From positions 244,575 to 308,574 of the IMG/VR virus record IMGVR_UViG_3300032280_000442: DNA of 64,000 nt; one strand, given 5' to 3'. The position numbers were made by a program, and so were the translations under genes. The first letter of the stretch is position 1; each line of letters starts with the position of its first letter. Shown here one piece after another: positions 1 to 63,706 of this stretch. The notes below the pieces were generated by a model. The model saw nothing but the letters and a program-made list of their open reading frames with translations. It was not told where the DNA came from and searched no databases. Source of the DNA: a virus (lineage: Duplodnaviria > Caudoviricetes).

Positions 1-240
1 ATTGTTACTGAATTAGAAGATTATGAAGAACTATGGCTTATGTCGTTATGTAAAAATAACATAATGTCAAACTCAACATTTTCTTGGTGGGGAGCGTTTT
101 TAAATAATAACATAAATAAAAAAGTATACACTCCAAGCCTTTGGTTTGGGCCTGCCGGAGAATATAATTTCCAAGACATATATTTAGATTCTTGGACAAA
201 AATAAACGTAACCTATTCCGAAGGAAAATTAATTTTTTAA
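1..240 (+). CDS. GT11 alpha-1,2-fucosyl/colitosyl-transferase, C-terminal part (5' truncated by window edge)
   Basis: Frame open from base 1; MSLCKNNIMSNSTFSWWGAFL...PSLWF is the GT11 C-terminal motif. Confidence 0.85.
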   Translation: MVTELEDYEELWLMSLCKNNIMSNSTFSWWGAFLNNNINKKVYTPSLWFGPAGEYNFQDIYLDSWTKINVTYSEGKLIF

Positions 241-243
241 AAT

Positions 244-1008
244 ATGAATTATTTACAAGGACAAAAATTTAGAGAAATATACGATAACAATAAAATTTAC
301 TATTGTGATACACACGATGTAAATTCATTTTTTGATAATATTAATTTTACACACGATTTTGTGTTGGTATCACACAACAGTGATGGTAATATAACAGATA
401 ACCCTATTAGACATTATGACGCTGATGTTAAAAAAATCCCTAAAAATTTAAAAAAATGGTTTGGACAAAATCTTAATTACGAATCAGAGATTATTGAGTC
501 ATTACCTATTGGTTTAGAAAATTCACAATGGTTTCCGGAAACAAGAAAAATTGAGAAGTTATTTAACATTAATTCAACACCAAAAAATATTAAAAATTTG
601 GTTTATTTAAATTTAAACATATTAAATAATCCGGGTGTTAGACAACCAATTTATGATATGTTAAACGATAAACCATATGTCACAACACAATATGGTAGAA
701 ATGGTTTGGGTTATGATGAATATCTTGATAACGTATACAACCATAAGTTTATGATTTGTCCTGAAGGTAATGGGATTGATGTCCACCAGCCTTGGGAATC
801 TTTATACGTTAACACAATTCCAATTCAAAAGAAAAATATTAATAACAGTAATTGGAGGGAATTACCAATTTGTTGGTTAGATGATTGGGAACAATTAACT
901 GATGAAAATTTTTTAATATCAGAATATAAAAGAATATCTGAAACAAAATTTGATTTATCTAAATTAGATTTTGATTATTGGAAGAATAAAATACAAAATT
1001 CCATATGA
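244..1008 (+). CDS. Exostosin/GT47-like glycosyltransferase
   Basis: HKFMICPEGNGIDVHQPWESLY resembles the GT47-like FCLxPxGxG.D..R.WEAL motif. Confidence 0.6.
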   Translation: MNYLQGQKFREIYDNNKIYYCDTHDVNSFFDNINFTHDFVLVSHNSDGNITDNPIRHYDADVKKIPKNLKKWFGQNLNYESEIIESLPIGLENSQWFPETRKIEKLFNINSTPKNIKNLVYLNLNILNNPGVRQPIYDMLNDKPYVTTQYGRNGLGYDEYLDNVYNHKFMICPEGNGIDVHQPWESLYVNTIPIQKKNINNSNWRELPICWLDDWEQLTDENFLISEYKRISETKFDLSKLDFDYWKNKIQNSI

Positions 1009-2054
1009 AAATAATAGTAATTGGTGCCGGTATTTTTGGTATTACAACGGCACTAACATTATCCGAAAATGGGTATGATGTGACATTAGTAGAATGTGAA
1101 AATGATATAATGACTAAAGCCAGTAAATGTAACCACAATAGATTACATTTTGGGTTTCATTATCCAAGAAGTATTAAAACTGCAAAACAAAGTTTAGACG
1201 GATATGATTTATTTTATAATAATTTTTCAAATTCAGTATTAACTAATTTTCCAAATTATTATTTAATTGAGAAAAATGGTAAAATATCCGGTGATGAGTT
1301 TAAACTATTTTGCGATGAATTAGACATATATTACAAAGAATCATCTCCCAATAATATTGAAGTGGATATGAGTAATATTACTTTATCAACAATAACTAAT
1401 GAACCAATATTTGATTTTGAATCTATTAAAATCGATTTATCAGAAAGATTAAAAAATTCAAAAGTTAGTCTAATTTTAAATAAAACAATAACGTCTGTTT
1501 CAGACTTATCCGGGTTTGATGTCGTTATTAATACAACATATCGTAATATTAATAAAATTAATGAGTTGTTCAATATCGAACCCATAAAGTTAAAATTACA
1601 AGATGTTATTGTCCCAATATTTAAAATGAATTCTGATAAGATTGGTTTAACAATTATGGATGGTGAGTATTGTACTATTATGCCAAAAGGGTTTGAAACG
1701 AATACTTTTTTATTATACCACGTAAAACACTCGGTTCTTAAACAAATTGAGGATTATGTGATTCCAAATAATTGGGTTAATAATGACCCGGAGTATATTA
1801 ATAACAAAATAAATGAAATATACGAATCTTCAAAAACTTACTACCCATTCTTAAAAGATTGTGAGAAAATATCATATTGGAGAACAGTTAGAGCATTACC
1901 AATTAATGATGACGATGAACGTTTAAGTACGTTAACTCTTAATAACGTTGGTGATAAAAAAATAATAACATTATTGTCAGGTAAAATAACAACTTGTTGG
2001 TTAATGTCTGAAAAAATATTAAAAATATTAAATGAAAACACTACTAATAGGTAA
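1005..2054 (+). CDS. FAD-dependent oxidoreductase
   Basis: N-terminal IIVIGAGIFG...VTLVE Rossmann motif; RLHFGFHYPRS. Confidence 0.8.
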   Translation: MKIIVIGAGIFGITTALTLSENGYDVTLVECENDIMTKASKCNHNRLHFGFHYPRSIKTAKQSLDGYDLFYNNFSNSVLTNFPNYYLIEKNGKISGDEFKLFCDELDIYYKESSPNNIEVDMSNITLSTITNEPIFDFESIKIDLSERLKNSKVSLILNKTITSVSDLSGFDVVINTTYRNINKINELFNIEPIKLKLQDVIVPIFKMNSDKIGLTIMDGEYCTIMPKGFETNTFLLYHVKHSVLKQIEDYVIPNNWVNNDPEYINNKINEIYESSKTYYPFLKDCEKISYWRTVRALPINDDDERLSTLTLNNVGDKKIITLLSGKITTCWLMSEKILKILNENTTNR

Positions 2055-2799
2055 CGGATACTGGGGGTCGATAGTGCAGTCTAAATTAATAACTCAAACT
2101 GATTTACTCTACGTTGCAAACTCTAAAGATAATATTGACGATATTTTAAATAAGTTTGATGTTGATTATGTTTTTGTTTGCACCCCAACTGACACACACT
2201 ACGATATTGTTAAAAAATGTCTTAATCACCATAAAAACGTTTTTTGCGAAAAACCTTTTACCGGTGATTTCGATAAAGCAAAAGAATTATATGAAATATC
2301 TGAAAAAAATAATGTAAACATTTTTGTTGATAATATTTTTCTATATCGATATGAATTTATTAATATACAAAACACCGCATTCAGTAATATTAAATTTATA
2401 TGGAATAAATACGAAAATATATTTAACGAAAACTTATTAAACAGATTACTTTACCACGACTTATATTTATTATTGAATTTATCAAATAACGGGTGGAACA
2501 TTAAATCGTGTAATATTTTTGATGACAGATTATCATTATCGTTAATTAACAACGATTTAACTTCCGAATTTAATTATAATAGAAGTTGTAAAGATAAAAA
2601 AGAAAAAATATTAATTTTAGATAATCACATCGTAGATTTTTCAGAACCGTTAAATGACCCATTATCAGAAATAATTAATAATTTACAAAATAATAAGATT
2701 AACCTTGAGGTTAATAAAAATATAACCCTAAACACAATTAAACTTTTAAACAAAATACAAAATGAATGCTTACTACACACATCAAGACACATTAAATAA
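2032..2799 (+). CDS. Gfo/Idh/MocA-family NAD(P) oxidoreductase
   Basis: LIGNGYWG; VCTPTDTH; NVFCEKP. Confidence 0.8.
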   Translation: MKTLLIGNGYWGSIVQSKLITQTDLLYVANSKDNIDDILNKFDVDYVFVCTPTDTHYDIVKKCLNHHKNVFCEKPFTGDFDKAKELYEISEKNNVNIFVDNIFLYRYEFINIQNTAFSNIKFIWNKYENIFNENLLNRLLYHDLYLLLNLSNNGWNIKSCNIFDDRLSLSLINNDLTSEFNYNRSCKDKKEKILILDNHIVDFSEPLNDPLSEIINNLQNNKINLEVNKNITLNTIKLLNKIQNECLLHTSRHIK

Positions 2800-3301
2800 A
2801 ATTTTAGAATCTTTCGATTATTCAACACCAATTCACTGCCTTGAATTTGGTTCAGGTGATGGTAGTTCTTCTGTTTTTCATACTTTTGCACAATCTAACC
2901 CAAATTTAACTGTGGATTGTTTTGAACACGAGGAAAGTTGGTTAAATAGTATGTCAGAAAAATATAAATTAAACAATTATAATTTTAATGTAGTCGATTG
3001 GTCAACAATGAATTATGATGATTTAAAAATTAAAAATTATGATTTAATTTTTGTGGACCAGGGAGATTGGGATGCCAGATTAGTTACGATAGACAAAATG
3101 AAAAATAATGCTAAGTATATTATATTACACGACTATTGTTATTATAATGGTTTTGGTCCCGGAATGGTACATTCGCCAGATATGGATTTTAATAACGTTG
3201 GTGAAGGTTCTTTTTTCCATAAATATAGTGTTGATTTTGAAGTTACCGGTGTAACCGAATTATTCCCACCAACATTAATTTTAAAATCTAAAAATTTATA
3301 A
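2762..3301 (+). CDS. Class I SAM-dependent methyltransferase-like protein
   Basis: CLEFGSGDGSS motif I; YDLIFVD; IILHD. Confidence 0.65.
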   Translation: MNAYYTHQDTLNKILESFDYSTPIHCLEFGSGDGSSSVFHTFAQSNPNLTVDCFEHEESWLNSMSEKYKLNNYNFNVVDWSTMNYDDLKIKNYDLIFVDQGDWDARLVTIDKMKNNAKYIILHDYCYYNGFGPGMVHSPDMDFNNVGEGSFFHKYSVDFEVTGVTELFPPTLILKSKNL

Positions 3302-4113
3302 TGATATCGGTTTATTTAAATGGCCGGTTAGGCAATAACTTATTTCAATACGCTTTTTGTAGAATATCGTCAATTAAAAAAAATTGTAATTTTTACATAC
3401 CAAAAAATCGAGAAGAATCAATTTCTTTTTATGGTTATTGTTCACAAAAAACATCTCAATATTTAGAGATGTCTTGTGAATCAAACCCACATTATTGGAC
3501 CGGTGAAAAATTATTTACCATCGATTATGGAATCAATGACGGACATATATATAAATCAATTGGTAACACAAATGTTGAAAACGTTACAGATGGAACATTA
3601 TTAGTAGATTTTTATCAATCAGATTCATATCTGTTAGAATATCGAGACATTATCTTGAATGATTGGTATAAATTTAATGAAAGTATTGTTGAAGAATCTA
3701 AAGAATTACTTAATAGGTACAATGTTGATGAATATTGTTATATACATTTAAGAGGTACGGATTACAAAACTATTCCACAATATTTTTTACCCATTAATTA
3801 TTATTTGAAAGCAATCGACCATATAAAAGAATTGAACCCAAATATTAAATTTTTAGTTATAACCGATGATGTTGATGAGGGTAAAAAAATGTTCCCCGAA
3901 TTTGAGGTTTTAAGTAACTCAACAGAAATTGATTTTTATTTAATTTCACAATCTAAATACAAGATAATTCCAAACTCATCTTTTTCTTGGTGGGCATCTT
4001 GGTTATCACAAAATAATAAAATAACAATAGCGCCAAATAATTGGTTCAACTATAATAGTGGTGACACATTCTCACCACCCGGAATAAAAACATCTTTTTT
4101 TACTTATATTTAA
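3301..4113 (+). CDS. GT11 alpha-1,2-fucosyl/colitosyl-transferase
   Basis: GRLGNNLFQYA; IHLRGTDY; NSSFSWWASWL. Confidence 0.9.
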   Translation: MISVYLNGRLGNNLFQYAFCRISSIKKNCNFYIPKNREESISFYGYCSQKTSQYLEMSCESNPHYWTGEKLFTIDYGINDGHIYKSIGNTNVENVTDGTLLVDFYQSDSYLLEYRDIILNDWYKFNESIVEESKELLNRYNVDEYCYIHLRGTDYKTIPQYFLPINYYLKAIDHIKELNPNIKFLVITDDVDEGKKMFPEFEVLSNSTEIDFYLISQSKYKIIPNSSFSWWASWLSQNNKITIAPNNWFNYNSGDTFSPPGIKTSFFTYI

Positions 4114-4114
4114 T

Positions 4115-5026
4115 ATGTTAATACTTACACACATTGGACTTCAACTACCTGAGTATTTGAATACGTTTTTAACACAAGTTAGAAAATTTAATAATAACTA
4201 TGATATCGTTTTTTTGGTTAACCAAGTTAATTGTGAAAACGAAATATTCAAAACACATAATGTTAAAACTTACCCAATTGAGGAATTAATTACCGATAGG
4301 GTTAATAATTTTATTAATAATTTTGGTTATGGTAACATTAATACTGTACACCAAAATATTCTTTATGGTGCCCCTGATTATTGGTGTGTTACCGCAGCAA
4401 GGTTGTTTTTTATTTATGAATATTGTTTAAGGAGCAATGTTAGTAAATTTTTTCATTTTGAAAATGACATTATGTTATACGAAAATTTAAATACTATTGA
4501 AAATTTAATTGTTAAAAATAGTTTGTATCATAATCAAATTTCTATAACAAGAGGTACTAACAATAAAATTATGACCGGATTTATGTATGTGGATACTTTA
4601 GAATCTTTTAATCATTTATTGACTGAAATAAATCACTACTTAGAATCTAAATTAGATTTATTTTCGTTTGGTATCGACCATTTAAATGAAATGGGATTAC
4701 TTCACATATATCAAGTAAACAACCCCGATAAATTAATTAATTTACCAATAGCCCCAAATAATAATTTAACAACAGATTTTGAATTTTATCAGTCCGTTTT
4801 TGACCCGGCCACATATGGTCAATTTCTTGATGGAACACCAGGGTCTCCGGGTGTTAGTCTAATACCGGATAGTATCATTGGGACCGAATTTAGTTATTCA
4901 AATATACCAATAACATTTGAAGTTATTGATAATTTAAGAATACCATTCGTGAGTTATAATAACAATAGATATAAAATAAATTCTTTACATATTCACTCAA
5001 AAAGATTAAACTTATTTCTAAGCTAA
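4115..5026 (+). CDS. Putative glycosyltransferase-like protein
   Basis: HFENDIMLY (DxD-like), FDPATYGQFL, LHIHSK; within glycan locus. Confidence 0.5.
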   Translation: MLILTHIGLQLPEYLNTFLTQVRKFNNNYDIVFLVNQVNCENEIFKTHNVKTYPIEELITDRVNNFINNFGYGNINTVHQNILYGAPDYWCVTAARLFFIYEYCLRSNVSKFFHFENDIMLYENLNTIENLIVKNSLYHNQISITRGTNNKIMTGFMYVDTLESFNHLLTEINHYLESKLDLFSFGIDHLNEMGLLHIYQVNNPDKLINLPIAPNNNLTTDFEFYQSVFDPATYGQFLDGTPGSPGVSLIPDSIIGTEFSYSNIPITFEVIDNLRIPFVSYNNNRYKINSLHIHSKRLNLFLS

Positions 5027-5037
5027 AATAAATTAAA

Positions 5038-5802
5038 ATGAAAAACTACGACATAGTAATTGTATCCCACGAAAAAGATTTCAATAATATTAAATTTATT
5101 GTTGAGTATTCTCAAAAAAACTTAAAGTTTGATTCAATACACTTAATTTTAAGTGAAAGAAAAGAATTCACCGATTTAGAATTGATAAAAACTTTAACAG
5201 ATAAACCTGTATTTTTACATTTAGAAAGTAATATTTTAAAGGTTGATAAATCAAGAATTAACCATAGACCAAATTGGATTTATCAAATGTTGTTGAAAAT
5301 TTTCCAAGATGTTACATTAAACGATGATTTTTTAATTATTGAGTCTGATTGTTTAATACTTAAAGAAATTAACTTTTTTGAGGAAGATAAAACAACTTTA
5401 TATTTATGTCGAGACCAACACCACACACCATATTTTAACTTTAATAATTTATTAGGATTTGGAAGAGAATATAACCATTCATTCATTTCTGAATTTATGA
5501 TGTATAATAAACAAATAGTAAAAGATTTGTTAAATAAATCAAATTGTAAAGATGTTAATGATTTTTTAGAAATTATATATAATAATGTGAATGGGGATTG
5601 TTATCCAGCCGATTACGAATTATATGGTAATTTTTGTATTAAATATCATAGAGATAAAGTAGATGTGAAACATTTAAACTATAATTTTTTTGGGAGAGAA
5701 TCCACACATAACCCATTTTGGACTGACTCAGAAATAATTGAATTAATTAATAGTAATTTAGATAAAGAAGTTATAAGCTTCCATACTTGGGGAGAAAATT
5801 AA
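5038..5802 (+). CDS. Putative GT-A fold nucleotide-diphospho-sugar transferase
   Basis: WIYQMLLK; LIIESDC (DxD-like); DYELYGNF; context. Confidence 0.5.
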   Translation: MKNYDIVIVSHEKDFNNIKFIVEYSQKNLKFDSIHLILSERKEFTDLELIKTLTDKPVFLHLESNILKVDKSRINHRPNWIYQMLLKIFQDVTLNDDFLIIESDCLILKEINFFEEDKTTLYLCRDQHHTPYFNFNNLLGFGREYNHSFISEFMMYNKQIVKDLLNKSNCKDVNDFLEIIYNNVNGDCYPADYELYGNFCIKYHRDKVDVKHLNYNFFGRESTHNPFWTDSEIIELINSNLDKEVISFHTWGEN

Positions 5803-5806
5803 AATT

Positions 5807-6592
5807 ATGACACTTAAACCTTCGTTAATAATAGGTAATACGTCTCAATTAAGTTATTATTTCCCCGATACTTTTGAAAAAATATCATCTAGAAATATTG
5901 AATTTGATAGAGTTTGTTCACAACAATATGATAAAGTTTTTTTGTTGTTTGCAGAACAAAGGACTTTTTTAAATGAGTCTGAGGATTTTTTTGTAAAAAC
6001 TAATGTTGATTATACTATAGAGGTTATTAATAAATTTAAAGATATCTCAAATAAAATCATCATTTATTCAACATCAGAATTGTGGAACAAATATGATGGA
6101 TGTATATCGTTAAAAGATAGTTACAATTATAATTATTCCCCATACATTAAATCAAAAGAAATCCTTTGTAATTACATTAACAATAATAGAGACATTTATC
6201 CTAACGTAATTATTATATACCCATTTAATTTCAATTCAGTTTATAGAAAAGAAGGATTTCTTTTTGGTAAAATATTTGATTCAATATTAAATAATAAAAA
6301 AATATCTATCGGAGATATAAATTTTAATAGAGATTTAACCCACCCAAAAAATATTGTAGACATTTCATTAAAGGTTAATGAGGATTGCATTATTGGTTCC
6401 GGAGAATTAATTAACGTCCAAAAATTTATTGAGGACATATTTGCAAAATTAAATAAAAACATTATAGATTACATTGAATATGATGATTCTAATAATCTAA
6501 AAACAAAAAGAGGTGGATATTATTGTTGTGATAAAACAATTGATTATGATGACCTCATTAACTTAACAATTAAAGACATATATGAGTATTAA
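5807..6592 (+). CDS. NAD-dependent epimerase/dehydratase-like protein (divergent SDR)
   Basis: YSTSELW; YIKSK (YxxxK); PFNFNS; RDLTH. Confidence 0.65.
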   Translation: MTLKPSLIIGNTSQLSYYFPDTFEKISSRNIEFDRVCSQQYDKVFLLFAEQRTFLNESEDFFVKTNVDYTIEVINKFKDISNKIIIYSTSELWNKYDGCISLKDSYNYNYSPYIKSKEILCNYINNNRDIYPNVIIIYPFNFNSVYRKEGFLFGKIFDSILNNKKISIGDINFNRDLTHPKNIVDISLKVNEDCIIGSGELINVQKFIEDIFAKLNKNIIDYIEYDDSNNLKTKRGGYYCCDKTIDYDDLINLTIKDIYEY

Positions 6593-7733
6593 ATTAGTAA
6601 AAGACACGATTGATTTTGATGATATCAACAAGTTAATAGAATGGTTAAAAACTAACCCAAGATTAACTAAAGGAGAATTAACTACGACTTTTGAAGATTT
6701 GTGGTCTAAATGGTTAGGTTGCAAATATTCGGTATTTGTTAATTCAGGGTCATCAGCTAATTTGGCTGCAATATATTCATTAATATTGTCAGGTAAATTA
6801 AAAAACAATAAAATTATTGTACCAGCAGTATCTTGGGTTACAACTGTAACACCTGCAATACAATTAGGTCTAACACCTATTATGTGTGATTGTGATATGG
6901 ATAATTTAGGATTAGACATTAATCACTTAAAAACTTTAATTAAAGAAGAAAATCCTTCTGTTATTATTTTAGTTCACGTATTAGGGTTTCCAAATCATAT
7001 GTCTGAAATAATTGAATTATGTAAAGAAAATGATATTTTATTAATTGAAGACACTTGTGAATCAATAGGTTCAAAATATGATGAAAAACATTTAGGAACT
7101 TTTGGTGATTTATCTACGTTTTCTTTTTATTTTGGACACCATATGTCAACAATAGAAGGTGGTATGATATCAACTGATGACGAAGACTTATACCATATTT
7201 TACTATCCATTAGGTCACACGGGTGGGATAGAGACTTACCTATATCAAAACAAAAAGAATTACGTGAAAAATATAAAATTAATGATTTCAAATCATTATA
7301 CACTTTTTATTATCCAGGATTTAATTTACGAGCAACAGACTTACAAGCATTCATTGGGATTCAACAAATGGGGAAATTAAATGATATTGTTGAAGGTCGA
7401 AATAAAAATTATTTGAGATATCAAGAAGGTATTAATAATAGTTTTTGGAATGTGAAACCAACAAGTAATTCTTATGTATCAAACTTTTCTTACCCAATAA
7501 TCACAAAAAATCTTGATAAATTAATATCTGAGTTACAAAATAATGATATTGAATGTCGACCTTTAATTTGTGGGTCAATAAATGAACACCCGTTTTGGTA
7601 TGAAAGATATGGTAAACAAGAATTACCAAACTCAAAATTAGTTCACGAATATGGTTTATACTTACCTAATAACCACCAAATGACTGAAGAAGAAGTGACT
7701 AAAGTAATTAAAATTGTTAACGAGAATATATGA
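6582..7733 (+). CDS. colD: PLP-dependent GDP-4-keto-6-deoxy-D-mannose 3-dehydratase (ColD-like, DegT/DnrJ family)
   Basis: VNSGSSANL; LIEDTCES; FSFYFGHHMSTIEGG with His at the usual Lys position; HGWDR. Confidence 0.7.
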   Translation: MSIKLVKDTIDFDDINKLIEWLKTNPRLTKGELTTTFEDLWSKWLGCKYSVFVNSGSSANLAAIYSLILSGKLKNNKIIVPAVSWVTTVTPAIQLGLTPIMCDCDMDNLGLDINHLKTLIKEENPSVIILVHVLGFPNHMSEIIELCKENDILLIEDTCESIGSKYDEKHLGTFGDLSTFSFYFGHHMSTIEGGMISTDDEDLYHILLSIRSHGWDRDLPISKQKELREKYKINDFKSLYTFYYPGFNLRATDLQAFIGIQQMGKLNDIVEGRNKNYLRYQEGINNSFWNVKPTSNSYVSNFSYPIITKNLDKLISELQNNDIECRPLICGSINEHPFWYERYGKQELPNSKLVHEYGLYLPNNHQMTEEEVTKVIKIVNENI

Positions 7734-8632
7734 GAAAATTATTAGTAACCGGTGGTAATGGTTTAGTTGGTTCTTCCATTATCTCTGATGTAAAAATTGG
7801 TAAACAATATGACTTAAGAAATATTGAAGAAACCAATAAAATGTTTGACTATTATAAACCAACTCACGTTATTCATTGTGCTGGAAAAGTTGGTGGTGTT
7901 AGTGCCAATATGGATTATAAAGGAGAATTCTTTTATGATAACATAATGATTAATACTAATGTTATTGAATCGTGTAGATTACATAACGTTAAAAAATTAG
8001 TATCATTTTTATCCACTTGCGTATTTCCAGACAATATTGAATACCCTATTACAGAAAAAAAGATTCATTTAGGAGAACCTCACTTTTCAAATTATCCATA
8101 CGCCTACGCTAAACGAATGGCTGATATTCAAATCAGGGCTTACCGAGAACAATATGGGTTAAATTATGTTTCAGTTATACCAACAAACATATATGGACCA
8201 AATGATAATTTCTCACTTAATTCAGGTCACGTAATACCAATGTTACTACATAAAATGTATAACGCTCAAAGAGACAATACGGATTTTGTTGTTTGGGGTA
8301 GTGGAACACCATTAAGAGAATTTATTTATTCTAAAGATGTTGCTAAATTATCTGAATGGGCTTTAGACAATTATGATGAATCCGAACCAATAATATTCAG
8401 TAATTCTGTTGAAATTAGTATTATGGACTTAGTTGACTTATTAGTAAAAGAATTTAACTTTAAAGGGAAGGTAGTATTTGATAACTCAAAACCGGATGGA
8501 CAATTTAGAAAACCATCCGACAATTCAAAATTAAAATCATATTTACCTAATTTTGAATTTACCCCAATTGAAAAGGGATTAAAAGAAACAATAAATTGGT
8601 TTATAGAAAATTATGACAAAACAAGAAAGTAA
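7730..8632 (+). CDS. fcl: GDP-L-fucose/GDP-L-colitose synthase (Fcl/ColC)
   Basis: VTGGNGLVG; AGKVGG; LSTCVFP; YAYAKR; PTNIYGPNDNF; WGSGTPLREF. Confidence 0.9.
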   Translation: MRKLLVTGGNGLVGSSIISDVKIGKQYDLRNIEETNKMFDYYKPTHVIHCAGKVGGVSANMDYKGEFFYDNIMINTNVIESCRLHNVKKLVSFLSTCVFPDNIEYPITEKKIHLGEPHFSNYPYAYAKRMADIQIRAYREQYGLNYVSVIPTNIYGPNDNFSLNSGHVIPMLLHKMYNAQRDNTDFVVWGSGTPLREFIYSKDVAKLSEWALDNYDESEPIIFSNSVEISIMDLVDLLVKEFNFKGKVVFDNSKPDGQFRKPSDNSKLKSYLPNFEFTPIEKGLKETINWFIENYDKTRK

Positions 8633-9602
8633 AATAGCACTAATCACTGGGATTAATGGTCAAGACGGTTCTTATCTTGCAGAATTCTTATTAGAAAAAG
8701 GATATGAAGTTCACGGAACTTTAAAACGAAATTCAGTATCAGAAAATCAAACATCAAGATTGGATAAAGTATACGATAAAGTTAAATTACATTACGCTGA
8801 TTTAACCGACCTATCATCATTAGTACGTGTTATTAGTGAGGTTAAACCGATTGAAATCTATAATTTAGCCGCTCAATCACACGTAAGAATATCTTTTGAC
8901 CAACCATTATACACCGCAAATGTTACGGGGATAGGAACTTTAAATGTTTTAGAGGCAGTCAAATTATTAAACCCATCTATTAAAATTTATCAAGCATCAT
9001 CATCAGAAATGTTTGGAAATTCAATTGATACGGATGGATATCAAAGAGAAACTACACCATTGAATCCCGTATCACCTTACGGATGTGCCAAAGTTTTTAG
9101 TTATAATATTTGTCGTAATTATAGAAATTCATATGGAATGTTTATTTCAAATGGAATATTATTCAACCACGAATCACCAAGAAGAGGTACTAACTTTGTA
9201 ACTAATAAAGTTTGTAAAGAAGCCGTTAAAATAAAACTTGGATTATCCAATGAACTTAAACTAGGTAACTTAGATGCCACTCGAGATTGGGGACACGCAA
9301 AAGATTATGTTAAAGTAATGTGGGAGATTCTTCAATTGGATAAACCTGATGATTTTGTATGTGCAACAGGAATATCACATTCAGTACAAGACCTATGTGA
9401 GTATGTTTTTGGAAAATTAGATTTAGATTGGGAATTATATGTAAAACAAGACGAGAAGTTTTTAAGACCGGAAGAATTACATAATTTAAAAGGTGACCCA
9501 TCAAAATTAGTAAAAGCGACGGGATGGACTCACGACTATACTTTTGAGAGTATGTTAGACGAAATGATTGAACATTGGTTAACATATTATAAACAACAAT
9601 AA
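8613..9602 (+). CDS. gmd: GDP-mannose 4,6-dehydratase
   Basis: ALITGINGQDGSYLAEFLL; LAAQSHV; YQASSSEMFG; NGILFNHESPRRG; RDWGHAKDYV. Confidence 0.97.
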   Translation: MTKQESKIALITGINGQDGSYLAEFLLEKGYEVHGTLKRNSVSENQTSRLDKVYDKVKLHYADLTDLSSLVRVISEVKPIEIYNLAAQSHVRISFDQPLYTANVTGIGTLNVLEAVKLLNPSIKIYQASSSEMFGNSIDTDGYQRETTPLNPVSPYGCAKVFSYNICRNYRNSYGMFISNGILFNHESPRRGTNFVTNKVCKEAVKIKLGLSNELKLGNLDATRDWGHAKDYVKVMWEILQLDKPDDFVCATGISHSVQDLCEYVFGKLDLDWELYVKQDEKFLRPEELHNLKGDPSKLVKATGWTHDYTFESMLDEMIEHWLTYYKQQ

Positions 9603-9609
9603 TTTTAAA

Positions 9610-10371
9610 ATGGCTGAACAGCGAAAAAGAAAACCAACAACAACTCCCACTCCGGAGGTAACAGGTAAACCGGTAAGTAAAAAAGATTTAATTACTCAGA
9701 TTATTAAAAGAAAAACTAAAGAAAAGTTTTTAACTATAAATCAAAAAAAGTATTATGATACTTTAATAGATAGTGAAATAACAATTTGTTCCGGGCCAGC
9801 GGGTGTTGGTAAAAGTTACATAACAATGAAAGCAGCAATTGATTTACTTTCGGACCCAAAAACACCTTACGAAAAAATAATTATTGTTAGACCGGCCGTT
9901 GAAGCCGAAGAAAAATTAGGTTCATTACCAGGTAACGTAGAAGAAAAATTAGACCCATATATTTTCCCCTCTTATTATTTATTAAATAAAATTATTGGAA
10001 AAGAGTCTAGAGAAAAATTAAAAGAGATTGAAGTTATCGAAGTATTTGCATTAGCGTTTATGAGAGGTATGAACATTGATAATTCTATTTTAATATTTGA
10101 AGAAGGTCAAAACGCATCTCCAAGTCAAATGAAACTTCTTTTAACAAGAATTGGGTTTAATAGTAAATTCTTTATTTCAGGTGATGTTGAACAATCAGAC
10201 AAATATAAAAACAAAACCTTAAGTGGTTTATGGGATGCAATTGAAAAATTTAGAGATGATGATTATGTATCAACATTTGAATTTAAAGATAAAAATGATA
10301 TTGTAAGAAACCCATTAATTAGTAAGATATTACGTAAATACGACAACGAACCGGATGAGAATAGCAATTGA
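9610..10371 (+). CDS. phoH: PhoH-family ATPase
   Basis: GPAGVGKS; RPAVEAEEKLGSLPG; FMRGM; GDVEQSD; IVRNPLI. Confidence 0.93.
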   Translation: MAEQRKRKPTTTPTPEVTGKPVSKKDLITQIIKRKTKEKFLTINQKKYYDTLIDSEITICSGPAGVGKSYITMKAAIDLLSDPKTPYEKIIIVRPAVEAEEKLGSLPGNVEEKLDPYIFPSYYLLNKIIGKESREKLKEIEVIEVFALAFMRGMNIDNSILIFEEGQNASPSQMKLLLTRIGFNSKFFISGDVEQSDKYKNKTLSGLWDAIEKFRDDDYVSTFEFKDKNDIVRNPLISKILRKYDNEPDENSN

Positions 10372-10951
10372 GATTAATGGGGTGTTAAGAAACACATTGG
10401 ATAAAATCCAACAAACCTATCAAAAATATATGATAGATAAAACTGAGGGTTTAGATGACGACGAATCTTTTAAATACGAAATAACCCCACCATTAAACAG
10501 TTTAAATCTTAGAAACCATTTTAAATTTCAAAATGATGAAGAATTATTTTCATTTTTATACGAAGAATTTCCAATGGAAATATTTGGTCATTCACAATCA
10601 ACCGAATATTCTACATTCAACGACTTAAATGAAATATATTTAAATTTGAGAGATAATCACGATATACTGATAGTGTCCGATGAGATTGGTAAATCTAAAC
10701 CAGCGTCTTTGTTTTTCTTATCAAAATTTGGATGTTTGGTTGAAAAAGTAAAATTTTACAGTAATTCAACAATAAATTCGATGTGGGATGAAATAGATGT
10801 TTTACTTACATCAAACCCTGCTCTATTATTAGAACATCCGGAAGATAAATTTATCATAAAATATCAAACGGAGTACAATAAACATATCAAATCAGACAAT
10901 TCAATAACATCAATTAAAGAATTAGAATTTGAATTAACAAAAATAAAATAA
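10355..10951 (+). CDS. HAD-fold 5'(3')-nucleotidase-like protein with degenerate catalytic motif
   Basis: MRIAIEINGVLRN aligns to IxIDxDGVL; YNKH near C-terminus. Confidence 0.55.
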   Translation: MRIAIEINGVLRNTLDKIQQTYQKYMIDKTEGLDDDESFKYEITPPLNSLNLRNHFKFQNDEELFSFLYEEFPMEIFGHSQSTEYSTFNDLNEIYLNLRDNHDILIVSDEIGKSKPASLFFLSKFGCLVEKVKFYSNSTINSMWDEIDVLLTSNPALLLEHPEDKFIIKYQTEYNKHIKSDNSITSIKELEFELTKIK

Positions 10952-27796: not shown

Positions 27797-28000
27797 ATGT
27801 ATTATATGATAATAGTAAAACTAAATAACAACGTAACGATTGAAAAGGCTTTAAAACTTTATAAAAGTAAAGTTATTAAGACTCGTCAAAGTGGGGAACT
27901 TTTTAAAAGAAAGGAATTTGTTAAGAAATCTGTTATTAAGAGAAATGAACTTTCTAAGGCTAAGTATGTCCAAAAAAAGTTCAATTCTGATAATGATTAA
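27797..28000 (+). CDS. rpsU: 30S ribosomal protein bS21 (phage-encoded)
   Basis: IEKALKLYKSKVIKT...ELFKRKEFVKKSVIKR...KAKY fits the bS21 pattern; start may be 27797 or 27806. Confidence 0.85.
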   Translation: MYYMIIVKLNNNVTIEKALKLYKSKVIKTRQSGELFKRKEFVKKSVIKRNELSKAKYVQKKFNSDND

Positions 28001-49110: not shown

Positions 49111-49507
49111 GGGGGTAAAATGGTATTGACTGGCATATCTACTTATTTGGGGCACGTAGTGAGAAGTTTCCTATCACTTAAATCTATGGATGACAAAATT
49201 ATAAATGGCAACATTTTAAACAAAATGGCTCTAGTAGGTCTTGTACGTCAAGACGAGCTTGTGAACGTAGCGTAAGCAAACACACATTGGGGTCGGTAGC
49301 CAAACAACCTAGCAACAGAAGGCTCTAAAAAGGTGTGGTACCTATCCGAAAAGGTACAAGTGGAGGATTAGTTCTCAGTAAACCGAACCACTCTAAAAAT
49401 AAGGGAATTGTGAAATTTCGGATTGTTAGCTCAAACAATGTCCTAAACGTGTAGTCCTGAACACTTAGGGTGAACAACACGAGGCTTCGAAGCCTCTACC
49501 TCCACCA
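49111..49507 (+). ncRNA. ssrA: tmRNA; predicted tag (A)GNILNKMALVGLVRQDELVNVA* at 49207-49275
   Basis: 5' GGGGGTAAAATGGTATTGAC; 3' GAGGC-TTCGAA-GCCTC-TACCTCC-A-CCA; G3:U acceptor pair; ATAAAT|GGC resume context; smpB adjacent. Confidence 0.93.
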
Positions 49508-49956: not shown

Positions 49957-50394
49957 CTATTTCAAGTCCCTTTTCATATCTCTATCAATATCTCGAGATT
50001 TTATACTATCTCGTTTATCGTGGAGTTTCTTACCTTTGGCAAGAGCAATTTCCATCTTAACCAATCCGGTATCATTTATGAAGACACGATAAGGAATGAT
50101 GGTTGTCCCGTTGATTAACTCACTTTCCAACTTATTCAGTTCTTTTCTCTTGGCTAATAGTTTTCTATCCTTAACGGTTTCGTGGAATGAACCATAACCA
50201 TAATCGGAGATGTTCATACCCTTGATGAACAACTCACCATTATTAAAATAACAATATCCTTCAGATATGGAGACCTTCCCCTGACGGATGGACTTCACTT
50301 CTGAACCAACTAGTTGGATTCCCACAATTAGAGTTTCCAAGAATGAATATTCAAACTTGGCTTTCTTATTGACTATGTTAATTGATTTTTTCAT
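49957..50394 (-). CDS. smpB: SsrA-binding protein SmpB
   Basis: NKKAKFEY; GIQLVGSEVKSIR; RKLLAKRKE; LAKGKKLHDKR. Confidence 0.96.
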   Translation of the reverse strand: MKKSINIVNKKAKFEYSFLETLIVGIQLVGSEVKSIRQGKVSISEGYCYFNNGELFIKGMNISDYGYGSFHETVKDRKLLAKRKELNKLESELINGTTIIPYRVFINDTGLVKMEIALAKGKKLHDKRDSIKSRDIDRDMKRDLK

Positions 50395-50426
50395 ACGACA
50401 AAGATAATATAAAAATTGATATAAAC

Positions 50427-50460
50427 AAAAAAAGGTGTCACATTACTGTAACACCTTTTT
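50427..50460 (-). terminator. Intrinsic terminator of the large ncRNA
   Basis: Minus strand AAAAAGGTGTTAC-AGTAAT-GTGACACCTTTTTTT. Confidence 0.8.
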
Positions 50461-50464
50461 GGCT

Positions 50465-51305
50465 TAATACGATGAGAATACTCGTCTTAGTAAGAATCTT
50501 TAGAAGGATTATTGTTTCCCTTCGTTTCCACCACCTTTTGAGTGGTAATCCTCATTGCTAATTGGTTAGACCAATTACTCCTTAAGATAATAACTACTCT
50601 CTTACTACTCTACTCTCTTTAAACTTGCGGTCTAACTCAGGATTCGACTCCTTAGAGGTTTTTGGTAAAAATACGATTGAACTTGGGGTTCTTTCGTGCC
50701 ACGGACAGCCCGTGACTAAGGAAGCAACTTTCGTTATCACCTGACAAACACTTTTCCGTTTTTCTGTTAGTTTTTCACCTATTGAAAAGTTTGGTTTGTG
50801 TTGTGGATTTGTCCAAGTAGAGGTTTGTCTTAGGCTTCATCATCTTTTGGACGACGAAATACCAATCTACCCGGTAGAGACTCCCATCTCTCATATTTTA
50901 AGAATTCTTCGAATCAAAATCTTGGTAGATGTTTGATAAGGATAATGACAGCACCACCTGTTACTTATCTTGTCTTTCGACTTTAAGATTTCTCTCATAT
51001 TGGAACCCGTAATAATTAAGTTGGATAACCTAACTTCTTACTTGATTCCTATCACTTATTCCTATTGGAGTTCCCCCCTCAACCGAAAGACCCACATCTC
51101 CCGGTCACCCAACCACTTTCTCTAAAGCGTCGCCCTCAATACTGAAGGTCAGATGGTATGTGACTTGTATACTCGAGCTCCCTTTCAGAAGCCGCAGAAC
51201 CAATAACACTAATGATTCCACTTTATCCCGGTTTCCCGGTTTATTTAAGGATGATATACCACCCATTATCTTTTTTTACATCACCGAAGTGTGTAATGGA
51301 TAATC
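50465..51305 (-). ncRNA. Large (~840 nt) structured ncRNA, probably GOLLD family
   Basis: No ORF; own promoter and terminator; many GNRA/UUCG hairpins (CAC-TTCG-GTG, CCGG-GAAA-CCGG, GTC-GAAA-GAC, AAC-GAAA-GTT); size and tRNA-adjacent phage context match GOLLD; ends approximate. Confidence 0.65.
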
Positions 51306-51310
51306 TAAAA

Positions 51311-51378
51311 TTTCTAAGAACGTATTAGGTTTCCCTAATTTGTTTTACAAAGGTAAGTGATTTTTTTCATAAGTCAAA
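51311..51378 (-). promoter_or_regulatory. Bacteroidota promoter followed by boxB-like hairpin and boxA-like element
   Basis: TTTG (51375-78) - 19 nt - TACCTTTG (51348-55); ATTAGG-GAAA-CCTAAT (51324-39); GTTCTTAGAAA (51311-21). Confidence 0.7.
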
Positions 51379-51410
51379 CACTTTTGTAATTTTTTTTTAT
51401 TTTTTTTTAA

Positions 51411-51640
51411 TCTGTGATAAGACCTTAAGATTTACTCATTCGTAGGTCACCCATTCTGTACTACCTAAAACTCGCCTTTAACATCCGTTCTACCCAAACC
51501 ATCGTTTATTTCTTGTTAACCTCACGGTTATCTTTGAGTACCTCCTCAACTGTAATCTGATAGGGGCTCCATATTGCTCGTCATTTCTGACTCCCTATGG
51601 GGTTCTGCTGTAATAGGTCTATCTGCTATCTTATCACAGA
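51411..51640 (-). ncRNA. Unassigned ~230-nt structured RNA
   Basis: 12-bp closing helix TCTGTGATAAGA/TCTTATCACAGA; internal GTCA-GAAA-TGAC, TAACC-GTGA-GGTTA, TTGAG/CTCAA, ATAGGG/CCCTAT. Confidence 0.6.
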
Positions 51641-51651
51641 ATAATCTATTG

Positions 51652-51741
51652 TGGTATCAGGTGGGTTCGAACCACCGGCACAGAGTCTTTCGTTACTCCT
51701 GCTCTACCAAAGGAGATAAATCTCCACTGAGCTATAATACC
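51652..51741 (-). tRNA. Aberrant tRNA-like RNA (extra hairpin in D loop, 8-nt anticodon loop, no assignable anticodon)
   Basis: GGTATTA/TGATACC acceptor; GCTC/GAGC D stem; GGTGG-TTCGAAC-CCACC T arm. Confidence 0.7.
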
Positions 51742-51751
51742 ATATAAGTTA

Positions 51752-51826
51752 GTGGACGTATGCTCTACCATCTGAGCTACAGCTTTTAATCACCGGAGGG
51801 ATTTGAATCCTCGACACAACGTCCAC
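51752..51826 (-). ncRNA. Circularly permuted tRNA-like RNA (YrlA-like topology)
   Basis: GTGGACGT-TGTGTC-GAGGA-TTCAAAT-CCCTC-CGGT..GCTG-TA-GCTC-AGATGGTA-GAGC-AT-ACGTCCAC. Confidence 0.7.
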
Positions 51827-51840
51827 CTATTTTTTCAATA

Positions 51841-51896
51841 TTTTTAAGAACCTTATTTCTTTGACAAAGATAATACTTTTATTTTAATCTGTCAAA
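51841..51896 (-). promoter_or_regulatory. Bacteroidota promoter plus boxA-like element for the tRNA-like operon
   Basis: TTTG (51893-96) - 20 nt - TATCTTTG (51865-72); GTTCTTAAAAA (51841-51). Confidence 0.7.
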
Positions 51897-51917
51897 CTTT
51901 TTTTTTAATTTTTTTTG

Positions 51918-52019
51918 TAGTCAGGACAGGATTCGAACCTGTTCCGTCTTTACCATAAAGAGTCGGCCTTACCGTTACTCAACCTTGGGGAGGTGATTCC
52001 AACCAATGGACTCCTGACT
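51918..52019 (-). tRNA. tRNA-like RNA with two extra hairpins in the variable region (isotype undetermined)
   Basis: AGTCAGG/CCTGACT acceptor; ACAGG-TTCGAAT-CCTGT T arm; TCCA/TGGA D stem. Confidence 0.65.
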
Positions 52020-52035
52020 ATGTTTCGTTAATGTT

Positions 52036-52176
52036 AAAAACTGACTCAATCTTCCTAAAAAACACTAACTTCCTACTTACTCTATTATAGGCTCGGCCGT
52101 CCTCTTTTAAATATAGTTTTACCTGAAACTTCTTCGGGTTGTTGATTGACCACTCCCGCTTACTCAAGTAGTTTTT
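52036..52176 (-). ncRNA. Candidate ~140-nt structured RNA
   Basis: Closing helix AAAAACT-ACTTGA / TTGAGT-C-AGTTTTT; internal CGGG/CCCG, AGTTT/AAACT, CCTA/TAGG. Confidence 0.35.
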
Positions 52177-52429
52177 ACATACTCATCATCCAACCCATTC
52201 GGTTTTGTTCTTGATACTGAGAATAAGTACATTTTCTCATTGACTTATAATCCGGTCTCAACTTTGAATGTGTTGGGTATTTCTTCTCGTGTTCCTTTTG
52301 TTCTCTCATCACACGAGCATACGCCTCTCTTTTACTTGGAGCCCATACATCATTAAATCCACCACCAATCCAATTAAACAAATATAGGTATTCACCATTA
52401 ACACTTCTATACAATTTCTCTTTAGCCAT
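52175..52429 (-). CDS. Hypothetical protein
   Basis: ORF with TATCTTTG promoter at 52451-58 and TTTG 19 nt upstream. Confidence 0.65.
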   Translation of the reverse strand: MAKEKLYRSVNGEYLYLFNWIGGGFNDVWAPSKREAYARVMREQKEHEKKYPTHSKLRPDYKSMRKCTYSQYQEQNRMGWMMSM

Positions 52430-52532
52430 ATCTTATCCGTTTTGTGAGTACAAAGATAAGGCTTAAATTGAAACTACCAAACTTTTTTTAAAAATTTTTT
52501 TATTTTTTTTTATTACTGAAGTGAAGTAAAAC

Positions 52533-52560
52533 AAAAAACCCCTCCGAAGAGGGGTTTTTT
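52533..52560 (-). terminator. Intrinsic terminator
   Basis: Minus strand AAAAAACCCCTC-TTCG-GAGGGGTTTTTT. Confidence 0.85.
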
Positions 52561-53248
52561 ATTTTAATAGTTTTTTAATTTTTTCAATATCTTTCATTAC
52601 TCGCCTTTGTTTACTTTCATTAAGCCCAAATATTTGTTTAGCGGGTTTAGCAATTAAATTTATCATAAAATTCTGAGCATATTCTTCAGCACTTGATTGT
52701 GTAGATGTTTCACTTCCCGGTGTAAATGGTGTTATTTTACCATCACCACATTTTAATGTTCCATTATCATTTAAGAATTGTCTTATATGACCTGTTTCAA
52801 CACCAATATGTAAATGGTCGTAATCACTACCCGGAAAGTCCATAACATAACCCAAAAGTTGACCACATTCTACTTTACTACCTTGTTTAACTGTCACATC
52901 TTTTAAGTGAGTATAATACACATCTGGAAGTCCACCATCACTATCGACAGTAAATCCCGCACCAAATAAAGTTTTTCCATCTTTTTTTATTGGTGTTGGT
53001 CCATAATCAGAATATGTTTTAACTGTTCCACCTACAACAGCATATACGGGAGTTCCTATTGAGGCTTTAAAGTCCCACGCATTAGCACTTTGCCATCCTG
53101 ATTGACCTTTATGGGCACCATCGGCAGGTATTTTAACTGAATCCCCCCCTAACAAACTAGTACTTGTAGTGGACACTTCATCTAAATTTTTTATTTTAGT
53201 TTTAAATTCAGATGTGGATATTTCCAATAATTGTATTAATTTTTTCAT
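52559..53248 (-). CDS. M23-family peptidoglycan endopeptidase
   Basis: WDFKASIGTPVYAV; YYTHL; HLHIG. Confidence 0.8.
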   Translation of the reverse strand: MKKLIQLLEISTSEFKTKIKNLDEVSTTSTSLLGGDSVKIPADGAHKGQSGWQSANAWDFKASIGTPVYAVVGGTVKTYSDYGPTPIKKDGKTLFGAGFTVDSDGGLPDVYYTHLKDVTVKQGSKVECGQLLGYVMDFPGSDYDHLHIGVETGHIRQFLNDNGTLKCGDGKITPFTPGSETSTQSSAEEYAQNFMINLIAKPAKQIFGLNESKQRRVMKDIEKIKKLLK

Positions 53249-63633: not shown

Positions 63634-63706
63634 TGGTCCCGGAGAATTACGATATCCCGACTTCTACATTATGAGTGTAGCACTCTGACCTCTGAGTTAC
63701 GAGACC
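63634..63706 (-). tRNA. tRNA with CAT anticodon (elongator Met or Ile2), atypical T loop, CCA not encoded
   Basis: GGTCTCG/CGGGACC; ACTC/GAGT; CTACA-CTCATAA-TGTAG; T loop ATCGTAA. Confidence 0.8.

What the first reader, a model, noticed from the sequence alone, without database searches (positions are those of the whole stretch)
50465..51305. ~840-nt ornate noncoding RNA (GOLLD-like)
Seen: an ORF-free, GC-richer tract with promoter, terminator and dense helices. Examples are ATTATCCATTA/TAATGGGTGGT, GGCTTCT-GAAA-GGGAGCT, ACCGGGAGA/TCTTTCGGT, TTTCGTCGTC/GATGATGAAG, GTAATTGG/CCAATTA, repeated GAGTA motifs, and ATATGAGAGA twice. Known: GOLLD RNAs are about 800 nt, occur in phages beside tRNAs and have no established function. 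The family assignment is from recall and context only.
Basis: partly seen in the sequence, partly recalled or inferred. Interest (0 to 1): 0.7.

Follow-up and report, generated by a model that had tools for sequence, protein, structure and literature searches.

The report
GOLLD RNA gene in jumbo phage
The gene-free stretch is a textbook GOLLD RNA, a giant phage RNA known to build hollow RNA-only cages but with no known job; here it sits in a 308-kb phage of Bacteroidota behind an rRNA-style leader and next to ribosome-rescue genes.

Summary
Observation confirmed and first reading supported. Window 50469-50874 (minus strand) matches Rfam GOLLD (RF02032) end to end at 307.7 bits, against a cut-off of 150. 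The Rfam model covers only the 3' half. An alignment of 57 homologues from IMG/VR phages shows that the 5' half (51264-50876) is also a conserved ornate fold. It has 110 base pairs, 95.5% of cells paired (36-41% in slid controls) and 86 pairs with compensatory changes.

The gene is its own transcription unit:
- Bacteroidota-type promoter, 51378-51348
- GAAA-capped leader hairpin
- boxA-like GTTCTTAGAAA, 51321-51311
- about 837 nt of folded core
- intrinsic terminator, 50460-50429

The host genome is a complete 308,574-bp phage with direct terminal repeats that also encodes ribosomal protein bS21. smpB lies 75 nt downstream and a tmRNA about 1 kb downstream. Odd tRNA-like RNAs and an unclassified 230-nt RNA lie upstream.

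tmRNA next to GOLLD recurs in 21 of 56 related loci. It comes as part of lineage-wide synteny, so it is only a weak functional clue.

This scan has reported GOLLD RNAs many times on other DNA, and the boxA leader once already. This is an ordinary new member of a known family, and its function is still unknown.

The parts
51348..51378 (-). Bacteroidota-type promoter: -33 TTTG (51378-51375), 19-nt spacer, -7 box TACCTTTG (51355-51348). The expected transcription start is near 51342.
   Evidence: Read from the sequence. The -7 box is conserved at the same place in most of the 57 homologues. The pattern TTTG-N17-21-TAnnTTTG occurs 56 times in the genome, against 22 +/- 5 in simulated sequence. The consensus itself comes from my knowledge of Bacteroides and Flavobacterium promoters.
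51324..51339 (-). Leader hairpin AUUAGG-GAAA-CCUAAU (boxB-like position)
   Evidence: Folded. Homologues keep a hairpin at this place through compensatory changes, for example UCGGAAAUGUCCGA and UCAGGAAAAGUCCUGA.
51311..51321 (-). boxA-like element GTTCTTAGAAA
   Evidence: of five copies in the 308-kb genome, only two follow a -7 promoter box within 13-26 nt, and both lead RNA genes. It is present in the first 170 nt of 47 of 57 homologues. The consensus 14-mer ACGTTCTTTGAAAA lies 114-166 nt before the start of 16S rRNA in five bacterial genomes, at least three of them Bacteroidota.
50876..51304 (-). GOLLD 5' domain (the cap domain in the solved structure). It is not covered by the Rfam model.
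   Evidence: Alignment A1. Over 51264-50876 there are 21 helices and 110 pairs, 95.5% paired, 86 pairs with changes on both sides, and 0 of 500 shuffles reach this. It contains invariant GNRA loops, for example GAAA at 51235-51232 and GGAA at 51074-51071.
50813..50874 (-). Long hairpin that opens the Rfam GOLLD model (model positions 1-62)
   Evidence: 23 pairs, 93-100% paired, with many pair types.
50750..50812 (-). A-rich variable linker between the two domains. It holds no tRNA.
   Evidence: Rfam alignment. Column identity is 0.63, against 0.79 in both domains. ARAGORN finds no tRNA inside any of the 56 related GOLLD genes.
50469..50749 (-). GOLLD conserved 3' domain (the ring domain), including the model's pseudoknot and the hairpin AGGAGUCGAAUCCU (50652-50640)
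   Evidence: The loop of that hairpin is GUCGAA in 14 homologues and CGCAAG in 43. This matches the GC/CG switch reported for kissing loop L21a.
50423..50460 (-). Intrinsic terminator: 14-bp hairpin followed by a U-tract
49957..50394 (-). smpB, 75 nt after the GOLLD core, with its own -7 box (TATCTTTG) just upstream. This is context and not part of the RNA.
   Evidence: Pfam SmpB PF01668, E 1.6e-47. It lies directly downstream of GOLLD in L011, L070 and L094 as well.
49111..49507 (+). Phage tmRNA, convergent with GOLLD (context)
   Evidence: Rfam RF00023 at 45.6 bits (cut-off 47), E 1.2e-16, full length from GGGGGU to ACCUCCACCA. ARAGORN missed it. Homologues lie near GOLLD in 21 of 56 loci.

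Best explanation
This is a functional GOLLD RNA gene of a 308-kb phage with direct terminal repeats that infects a Bacteroidota host, probably a freshwater Flavobacteriia-like one.

Shown: the gene has its own host-type promoter, a hairpin plus boxA-like leader, an 837-nt core (51304-50469, minus strand) and a terminator. The core folds into a 5' domain and a 3' domain, both supported by covariation, joined by a variable A-rich linker.

Inferred by homology with the solved GOLLD env-38: copies of the RNA assemble without protein into a closed multimeric nanocage (14 chains, D7 symmetry in env-38). The 5' domains would form the caps, the 3' domains the rings, and the linker would face the interior.

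Inferred from the leader: the gene is transcribed by Nus-modified, rRNA-type antitermination complexes. These would help a long, untranslated, highly structured RNA get made and folded.

Inferred weakly from context (smpB, tmRNA, tRNA-like RNAs and bS21 in the same phage) and from published ribosome pull-downs: the cage acts in the phage's takeover of host translation, for example by holding or shielding ribosome- or tRNA-related cargo. What it holds is unknown.
For: - Family identity: RF02032 at 307.7 bits against a cut-off of 150, full model.
- Homologues: 88 full-length homologues in IMG/VR phages at 62-90% identity across the whole unit.
- 5' domain: 110 pairs, 95.5% paired against 36-41% when slid, covariation score 0.535 against 0.08-0.11. 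The whole-RNA consensus fold has 194 pairs, 154 with compensatory changes.
- Promoter, hairpin and boxA-like leader are conserved in homologues. The same boxA word lies before 16S genes of Bacteroidota.
- Terminator.
- Complete phage genome with direct terminal repeats, with bS21, SmpB and tmRNA.
- Host: the promoter pattern is enriched 2.5-fold. The nearest GenBank matches are the 635- and 642-kb phages assigned to Bacteroidetes (PMC7162821). Phages of about 300 kb that encode bS21 infect freshwater Bacteroidetes (PMC9723584).
- Cage architecture, linker position and kissing loops: Kretsch et al.. The GC/CG switch in the matching loop is seen here.
Against: - There are no expression data for this phage.
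- Multimerisation of this sequence is untested, and its 5' domain could not be compared with env-38 directly.
- My assignment of the hairpin at 50652-50640 to L21a is by position only.
- The boxA reading rests on sequence resemblance and position, with no evidence of Nus factor binding.
- The tmRNA/SmpB neighbourhood is shared only by one of two synteny types. It travels with other conserved neighbour genes, so it may reflect common descent and no functional link.
- The canonical tRNA island is 13 kb or more away on the map.
Confidence: 0.9

Rival explanations
1. A different large ornate RNA (ROOL or a new class) that only resembles GOLLD in size and setting.
For: The 5' 430 nt have no Rfam model.
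Against: The full-length GOLLD model matches at twice the gathering score. No ROOL or other large-RNA hit appears even at E up to 1. The 5' half is contiguous and co-conserved with the 3' half in 88 loci.
Confidence: 0.01
2. A decaying or non-functional GOLLD remnant carried passively by the phage.
For: No expression data exist. Function is unknown for the whole family.
Against: All model helices are intact, with two non-canonical pairs in 416 positions. The window sequence forms every consensus helix of the 5' domain. The promoter, leader and terminator are intact and conserved. Compensatory changes across the clade show ongoing selection.
Confidence: 0.03
3. GOLLD here is one component of a dedicated ribosome-rescue and tRNA-mimic module. 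In this reading the cage works physically with the phage's tmRNA-SmpB and tRNA-like RNAs, and is more than an independent RNA that happens to lie nearby.
For: smpB lies 75 nt downstream and tmRNA about 960 nt downstream, convergent. tmRNA is within the fetched locus in 21 of 56 non-redundant GOLLD loci. It is within 1.5 kb downstream in 15 of the 46 loci with enough flank. Three tRNA-like RNAs and a 230-nt RNA lie directly upstream. The literature reports ribosome pull-down and tRNAs in GOLLD linkers.
Against: Neighbour clustering shows two synteny types. tmRNA travels with other conserved protein genes in one type and is absent from the other, so the pairs are not independent events. tmRNA genes commonly sit in phage tRNA regions anyway. 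I found no paper that links the two.
Confidence: 0.12

Closest known systems
GOLLD RNA (Rfam RF02032; Weinberg et al. 2009; cryo-EM of env-38 in Kretsch et al., bioRxiv 10.1101/2024.12.08.627333)
   Same: The conserved 3' domain matches in full, pseudoknot included. The core is about 840 nt, with a separate 5' domain and a variable linker. It is encoded by a phage and lies near tRNA-type genes. The loop with the GC/CG self-complementary switch is present.
   Different: There is no tRNA in the linker. Within this clade the 5' domain is as conserved as the 3' domain (column identity 0.79 for each). The immediate tRNA neighbours are non-canonical. smpB and tmRNA are adjacent. The host phylum is Bacteroidota rather than Lactobacillales.
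ROOL RNA (phage and prophage, about 580 nt, octameric nanocage)
   Same: A large ornate phage RNA near tRNA genes that forms RNA-only cages, with unknown function.
   Different: The sequence and fold are unrelated, and no Rfam ROOL match was found in the window.
Bacterial rrn operon leader (boxB hairpin followed by boxA, Nus-dependent antitermination)
   Same: A promoter is followed by a small hairpin and then GTTCTT(A/T)(G/A)AAA, ahead of a long untranslated structured RNA. The same word precedes 16S genes in Bacteroidota genomes.
   Different: It drives a phage non-coding RNA and no rRNA. No boxC or tandem promoters were examined here, and Nus factor binding is untested.

Membership tests
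GOLLD RNA (RF02032) | Covariance-model score at or above the curated gathering score (150 bits) | tested here: met
   307.7 bits, E 3.7e-87, window 50469-50874 minus strand
GOLLD RNA (RF02032) | Complete conserved 3' domain, including the long-range pseudoknot of the model | tested here: met
   Model positions 1-416 of 416 are aligned, the pseudoknot strands pair, and only two non-canonical pairs are flagged
GOLLD RNA (RF02032) | Giant size (about 800 nt or more) with a second, ornate 5' domain | tested here: met
   The core is 51304-50469, or 837 nt. The 5' domain has 21 helices and 110 pairs with strong covariation
GOLLD RNA (RF02032) | Variable linker between the 5' and 3' regions | tested here: met
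   50812-50750 is A-rich, with column identity 0.63 against 0.79 in the domains
GOLLD RNA (RF02032) | Encoded by phages or prophages, often beside tRNA genes | tested here: met
   Complete 308,574-bp virus record with direct terminal repeats. A tRNA-like gene lies at 51651-51741. 11 of 56 related loci have a tRNA within 500 nt upstream
GOLLD RNA (RF02032) | Self-complementary kissing loop (L21a) whose central dinucleotide switches between GC and CG | tested here: inconclusive
   The hairpin at 50652-50640 has loop GUCGAA. The homologues split 14 GUCGAA to 43 CGCAAG, as the paper describes. I assigned this hairpin to L21a by position only
GOLLD RNA (RF02032) | RNA-only homo-multimeric nanocage | not testable with these tools
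   Needs mass photometry or cryo-EM of the transcript
GOLLD RNA (RF02032) | Expression rising during phage lysis | not testable with these tools
   The phage is uncultured and no RNA data are at hand
ROOL RNA | Match to the Rfam ROOL model | tested here: not met
   No match at the gathering score or at E up to 1
rrn-type antitermination leader (boxB-boxA) | boxA-like word between the promoter and the structured RNA, conserved in homologues and present before host-phylum 16S genes | tested here: met
   GTTCTTAGAAA lies 26 nt after the -7 box. It is present in 47 of 57 homologues. ACGTTCTTTGAAAA lies 114-166 nt before the 16S start in 5 of 120 genome hits, including Saccharicrinis, Marinifilum and a Bacteroidia MAG
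rrn-type antitermination leader (boxB-boxA) | Binding of NusB/NusE and antitermination activity | not testable with these tools
   Biochemical test needed

The most novel reading that the evidence does not exclude
The GOLLD cage of this phage lineage is the structural core of a translation-takeover module made by rRNA-type transcription. In this reading it encloses or scaffolds the neighbouring phage RNAs and proteins (tmRNA-SmpB, the tRNA mimics, perhaps ribosomal subunits carrying phage bS21). That would protect them from host RNases or deliver them to stalled ribosomes, and it would give GOLLD its first defined cargo and function.
Probability: 0.1. Interest if true: 0.8.

Novelty: new member of a known kind. 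Interest (0 to 1): 0.3.

Why it matters
GOLLD has had no known function since 2009, although it is now known to form one of the largest natural RNA-only assemblies. This copy adds no new principle, but it is a clean, complete example. It has mapped promoter, leader and terminator, and the accompanying alignment documents the fold of the 5' (cap) domain by covariation in a Bacteroidota-phage clade. Its setting points to experiments on a link with translation and on how such a large RNA is transcribed and folded. That setting comprises the rRNA-style leader, smpB, tmRNA, tRNA mimics and a phage bS21.

Tried and rejected
- The sigma-70 promoter scan gave no promoter for the gene on the minus strand. 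The promoter is of the Bacteroidota type.
- ARAGORN missed the tmRNA and gave unstable identities (Thr, Pro, ???) to the odd tRNA-like gene in the window and in relatives.
- The phage GenBank collection gave only three weak matches, so relatives had to be taken from IMG/VR by a motif scan.
- I first read GOLLD-tmRNA adjacency as a specific two-gene module. Clustering of the neighbouring ORFs showed it is part of lineage-wide synteny, so I downgraded it.
- RNAalifold proposed a linker-to-3'-domain pairing, UCCAC/GUGGA. GUGGA was fixed by my search pattern and overlaps a model helix, so I do not claim it.
- A literature search for the boxA word as a text string gave nothing useful.
- I looked for Ro60/TROVE and RtcB genes that might partner the YrlA-like RNA. 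The phage has neither.
- env-38 itself could not be aligned because no nucleotide copy of it was available to the tools.

Full report
**What is there.** The tract 50465-51305 has no ORF longer than 53 aa. It is slightly richer in G+C than its surroundings, at 36-38%. A scan of the whole window against Rfam 15 gives one strong hit: GOLLD (RF02032) at 50469-50874 on the minus strand. The score is 307.7 bits against a gathering score of 150, with E 3.7e-87. All 416 model positions align, and only two non-canonical pairs are flagged. The same result comes from a permissive search of 50300-52700, which finds no ROOL or other large-RNA family at E up to 1. The window is the last 64 kb of a 308,574-bp IMG/VR virus record. 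That record has direct terminal repeats, is rated 100% complete, and holds a single GOLLD copy.

**The part Rfam does not model.** The Rfam model covers only the 3' half, so I collected relatives.
- A motif from the 3' domain found at least 119 IMG/VR contigs.
- 88 of these align with the window over essentially the whole unit at 62-90% identity.
- The window plus 56 non-redundant sequences give alignment A1.
- RNAalifold predicts 194 pairs on A1, 154 of them with compensatory double changes.

For the 5' domain alone (window 51264-50876, 21 helices, 110 pairs), the counts are as follows.

| Measure | Observed | 3' partners slid by 1-3 columns |
|---|---|---|
| Cells forming standard pairs | 95.5% | 36-41% |
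| Pairs changed on both sides | 86 | 31-42 |
| Covariation score | 0.535 | 0.08-0.11 |

None of 500 shuffles reaches the observed values.

The outermost helix, 51304-51299 with 51270-51265, is conserved but shows little covariation. Within this clade the 5' domain is as conserved as the 3' domain, with mean column identity 0.79 for each. The A-rich linker (50812-50750) is at 0.63. No tRNA lies inside any of these GOLLD genes. Against a distant relative, Acinetobacter phage vB_AciJM_313, only the 3' region aligns. This fits the published picture of a universal 3' region and a divergent 5' region.

**Transcription unit.**
- *Promoter.* Upstream on the minus strand lie TTTG (51378-51375), a 19-nt spacer and TACCTTTG (51355-51348). 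This is the -33/-7 promoter form of Bacteroidota; the consensus is from my own knowledge of Bacteroides and Flavobacterium promoters. The pattern occurs 56 times in the genome against 22 +/- 5 in simulated sequence. The -7 box is conserved at this place in the homologues.
- *Leader hairpin.* It is GAAA-capped (51339-51324) and is kept in relatives through compensatory changes.
- *boxA-like element.* This is GTTCTTAGAAA (51321-51311). Of the five copies of GTTCTTWRAAA in the genome, only two follow a -7 box within 13-26 nt. One leads GOLLD and the other leads the tRNA-like RNA operon at 51851-51841. 47 of 57 homologues carry the word in their first 170 nt, and 39 show the full box-hairpin-word arrangement.
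- *Test of the rrn-boxA reading.* I scanned the species-representative genomes for ACGTTCTTTGAAAA. Among 120 returned loci, most of them chance matches, five have the start of 16S rRNA 114-166 nt downstream. They include Saccharicrinis, Marinifilum flexuosum, a Bacteroidia MAG and a Bacillota MAG. That is far more than chance would give.
- *Terminator.* The RNA ends with a 14-bp terminator hairpin and U-tract at 50460-50429.

**Host and phage.**
- The closest GenBank matches are the 642-kb and 635-kb uncultured phages LR756502 and LR745206. Their describers assign them to Bacteroidetes hosts (PMC7162821).
- The genome encodes ribosomal protein bS21 (window 27815-27973). Its size matches the 293-331-kb bS21 phages of freshwater Bacteroidetes (PMC9723584).
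- Its 18 canonical tRNA genes lie at genome positions 167-10404, which is 13 kb or more from GOLLD across the terminal repeat.

**Neighbours.**
- *Downstream.* smpB is at 49957-50394 (Pfam E 1.6e-47). A convergent tmRNA is at 49111-49507 (Rfam 45.6 bits against a cut-off of 47, E 1.2e-16, full length). ARAGORN missed it.
- *Upstream.* There is a 230-nt structured RNA, a tRNA-like gene with a hairpin in its D loop and an 8-nt anticodon loop, a circularly permuted tRNA-like fold with a weak YrlA match, and a further tRNA-like RNA.
- *tmRNA in relatives.* tmRNA homologues lie in 21 of 56 non-redundant GOLLD loci. They lie within 1.5 kb downstream in 15 of the 46 loci with enough flank, nearly always convergent. 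SmpB follows GOLLD directly in the nearest relatives.
- *Caveat.* Clustering of all neighbouring ORFs shows two synteny types. tmRNA belongs to the type shared with the window, together with other conserved protein genes. The adjacency is therefore inherited synteny and gives only weak evidence for a functional tie. I found no paper that links GOLLD with tmRNA.

**How it most likely works.** Its identity as a GOLLD RNA is shown. From the cryo-EM work, GOLLD env-38 forms a closed 14-mer cage of 380 Å. The 5' domains form the caps and the 3' domains the rings, and the disordered linker sits inside. Conserved kissing loops and A-minor contacts hold the cage together. The window's hairpin at 50652-50640 has loop GUCGAA, whereas 43 of 57 relatives have CGCAAG. 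This is the GC/CG switch reported for the self-pairing loop L21a, although I matched the hairpin to L21a by position only. I therefore infer cage assembly for this RNA. The boxA leader suggests Nus-type antitermination, which would suit a long untranslated structured transcript. A role in the phage's manipulation of translation is plausible, given the context and the published ribosome pull-down, but it is unproven.

**Comparison and novelty.** This is a new member of a known family. The scan's notebook shows GOLLD noted in thousands of genomes. An earlier follow-up (e1-5339394) already reported the hairpin-plus-GTTCTTTGAAA leader before a phage GOLLD and tmRNA on other DNA. My results agree with it independently. 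They gave me the lead to the tmRNA, which I then confirmed.

**Verdict.** The finding is ordinary for the field, with modest added value from the mapped transcription unit, the 5'-domain covariation and the context.

Noticed in passing
window 51410-51640 (-): A structured RNA of about 230 nt, closed by a 12-bp helix, with no Rfam match at E up to 1. The tract is absent from relatives L011 and L082 (12 nt in its place), 99.6% identical in L032, L037 and L123, and 86% identical at another site in L058, behind a tRNA. A 19-mer from it finds 38 IMG/VR contigs, 19 of them non-redundant true homologues. The consensus fold has 60 pairs, 10 with compensatory changes. In other phages it has its own GTTCTTTGAAA leader.
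   Followed up: partly
window 49111-49507 (+): A phage tmRNA just under the Rfam cut-off (45.6 bits against 47, E 1.2e-16) that ARAGORN missed. It has its own Bacteroidota-type promoter and a terminator. The tag reading frame looks unusually long, at about 22 codons ending NVA.
   Followed up: partly
window 49957-50394 (-): A phage-encoded SmpB (Pfam E 1.6e-47) directly downstream of GOLLD.
   Followed up: yes
window 51745-51839 (-): A circularly permuted tRNA-like fold, with a 9-bp terminal stem in place of the anticodon stem, then a T arm, a closed acceptor-like stem and a D arm. It has a weak Rfam YrlA match (30 bits, cut-off 69, E 6.5e-4). The phage has no Ro60/TROVE or RtcB gene.
   Followed up: partly
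window 51651-51741 (-): A tRNA-like gene with a 19-nt hairpin inserted in the D loop and an 8-nt anticodon loop (AACGAAAG). ARAGORN calls it Thr here and Pro or undetermined in relatives, so it is probably not an ordinary decoder.
   Followed up: partly
window 51912-52016 (-): A further tRNA-like sequence of about 100 nt with good acceptor and T arms but extra internal hairpins. Neither ARAGORN nor Rfam calls it.
   Followed up: no
window 27815-27973 (+): A ribosomal protein bS21 gene (Pfam 31.7 bits). It places the phage among the bS21-encoding phages of about 300 kb that infect freshwater Bacteroidetes.
   Followed up: partly
window 63634-63706 (-): Rfam tRNA hit (49.5 bits, anticodon CAU) with an odd T arm. 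ARAGORN does not call it.
   Followed up: no
L003 (LR745206.1) about 2409-3359: The GOLLD of the 635-kb phage carries an insertion of about 40 nt in a 5'-domain hairpin (A1 columns 616-658). It sits 7 nt downstream of a tRNA-Met, as reported for env-38.
   Followed up: no
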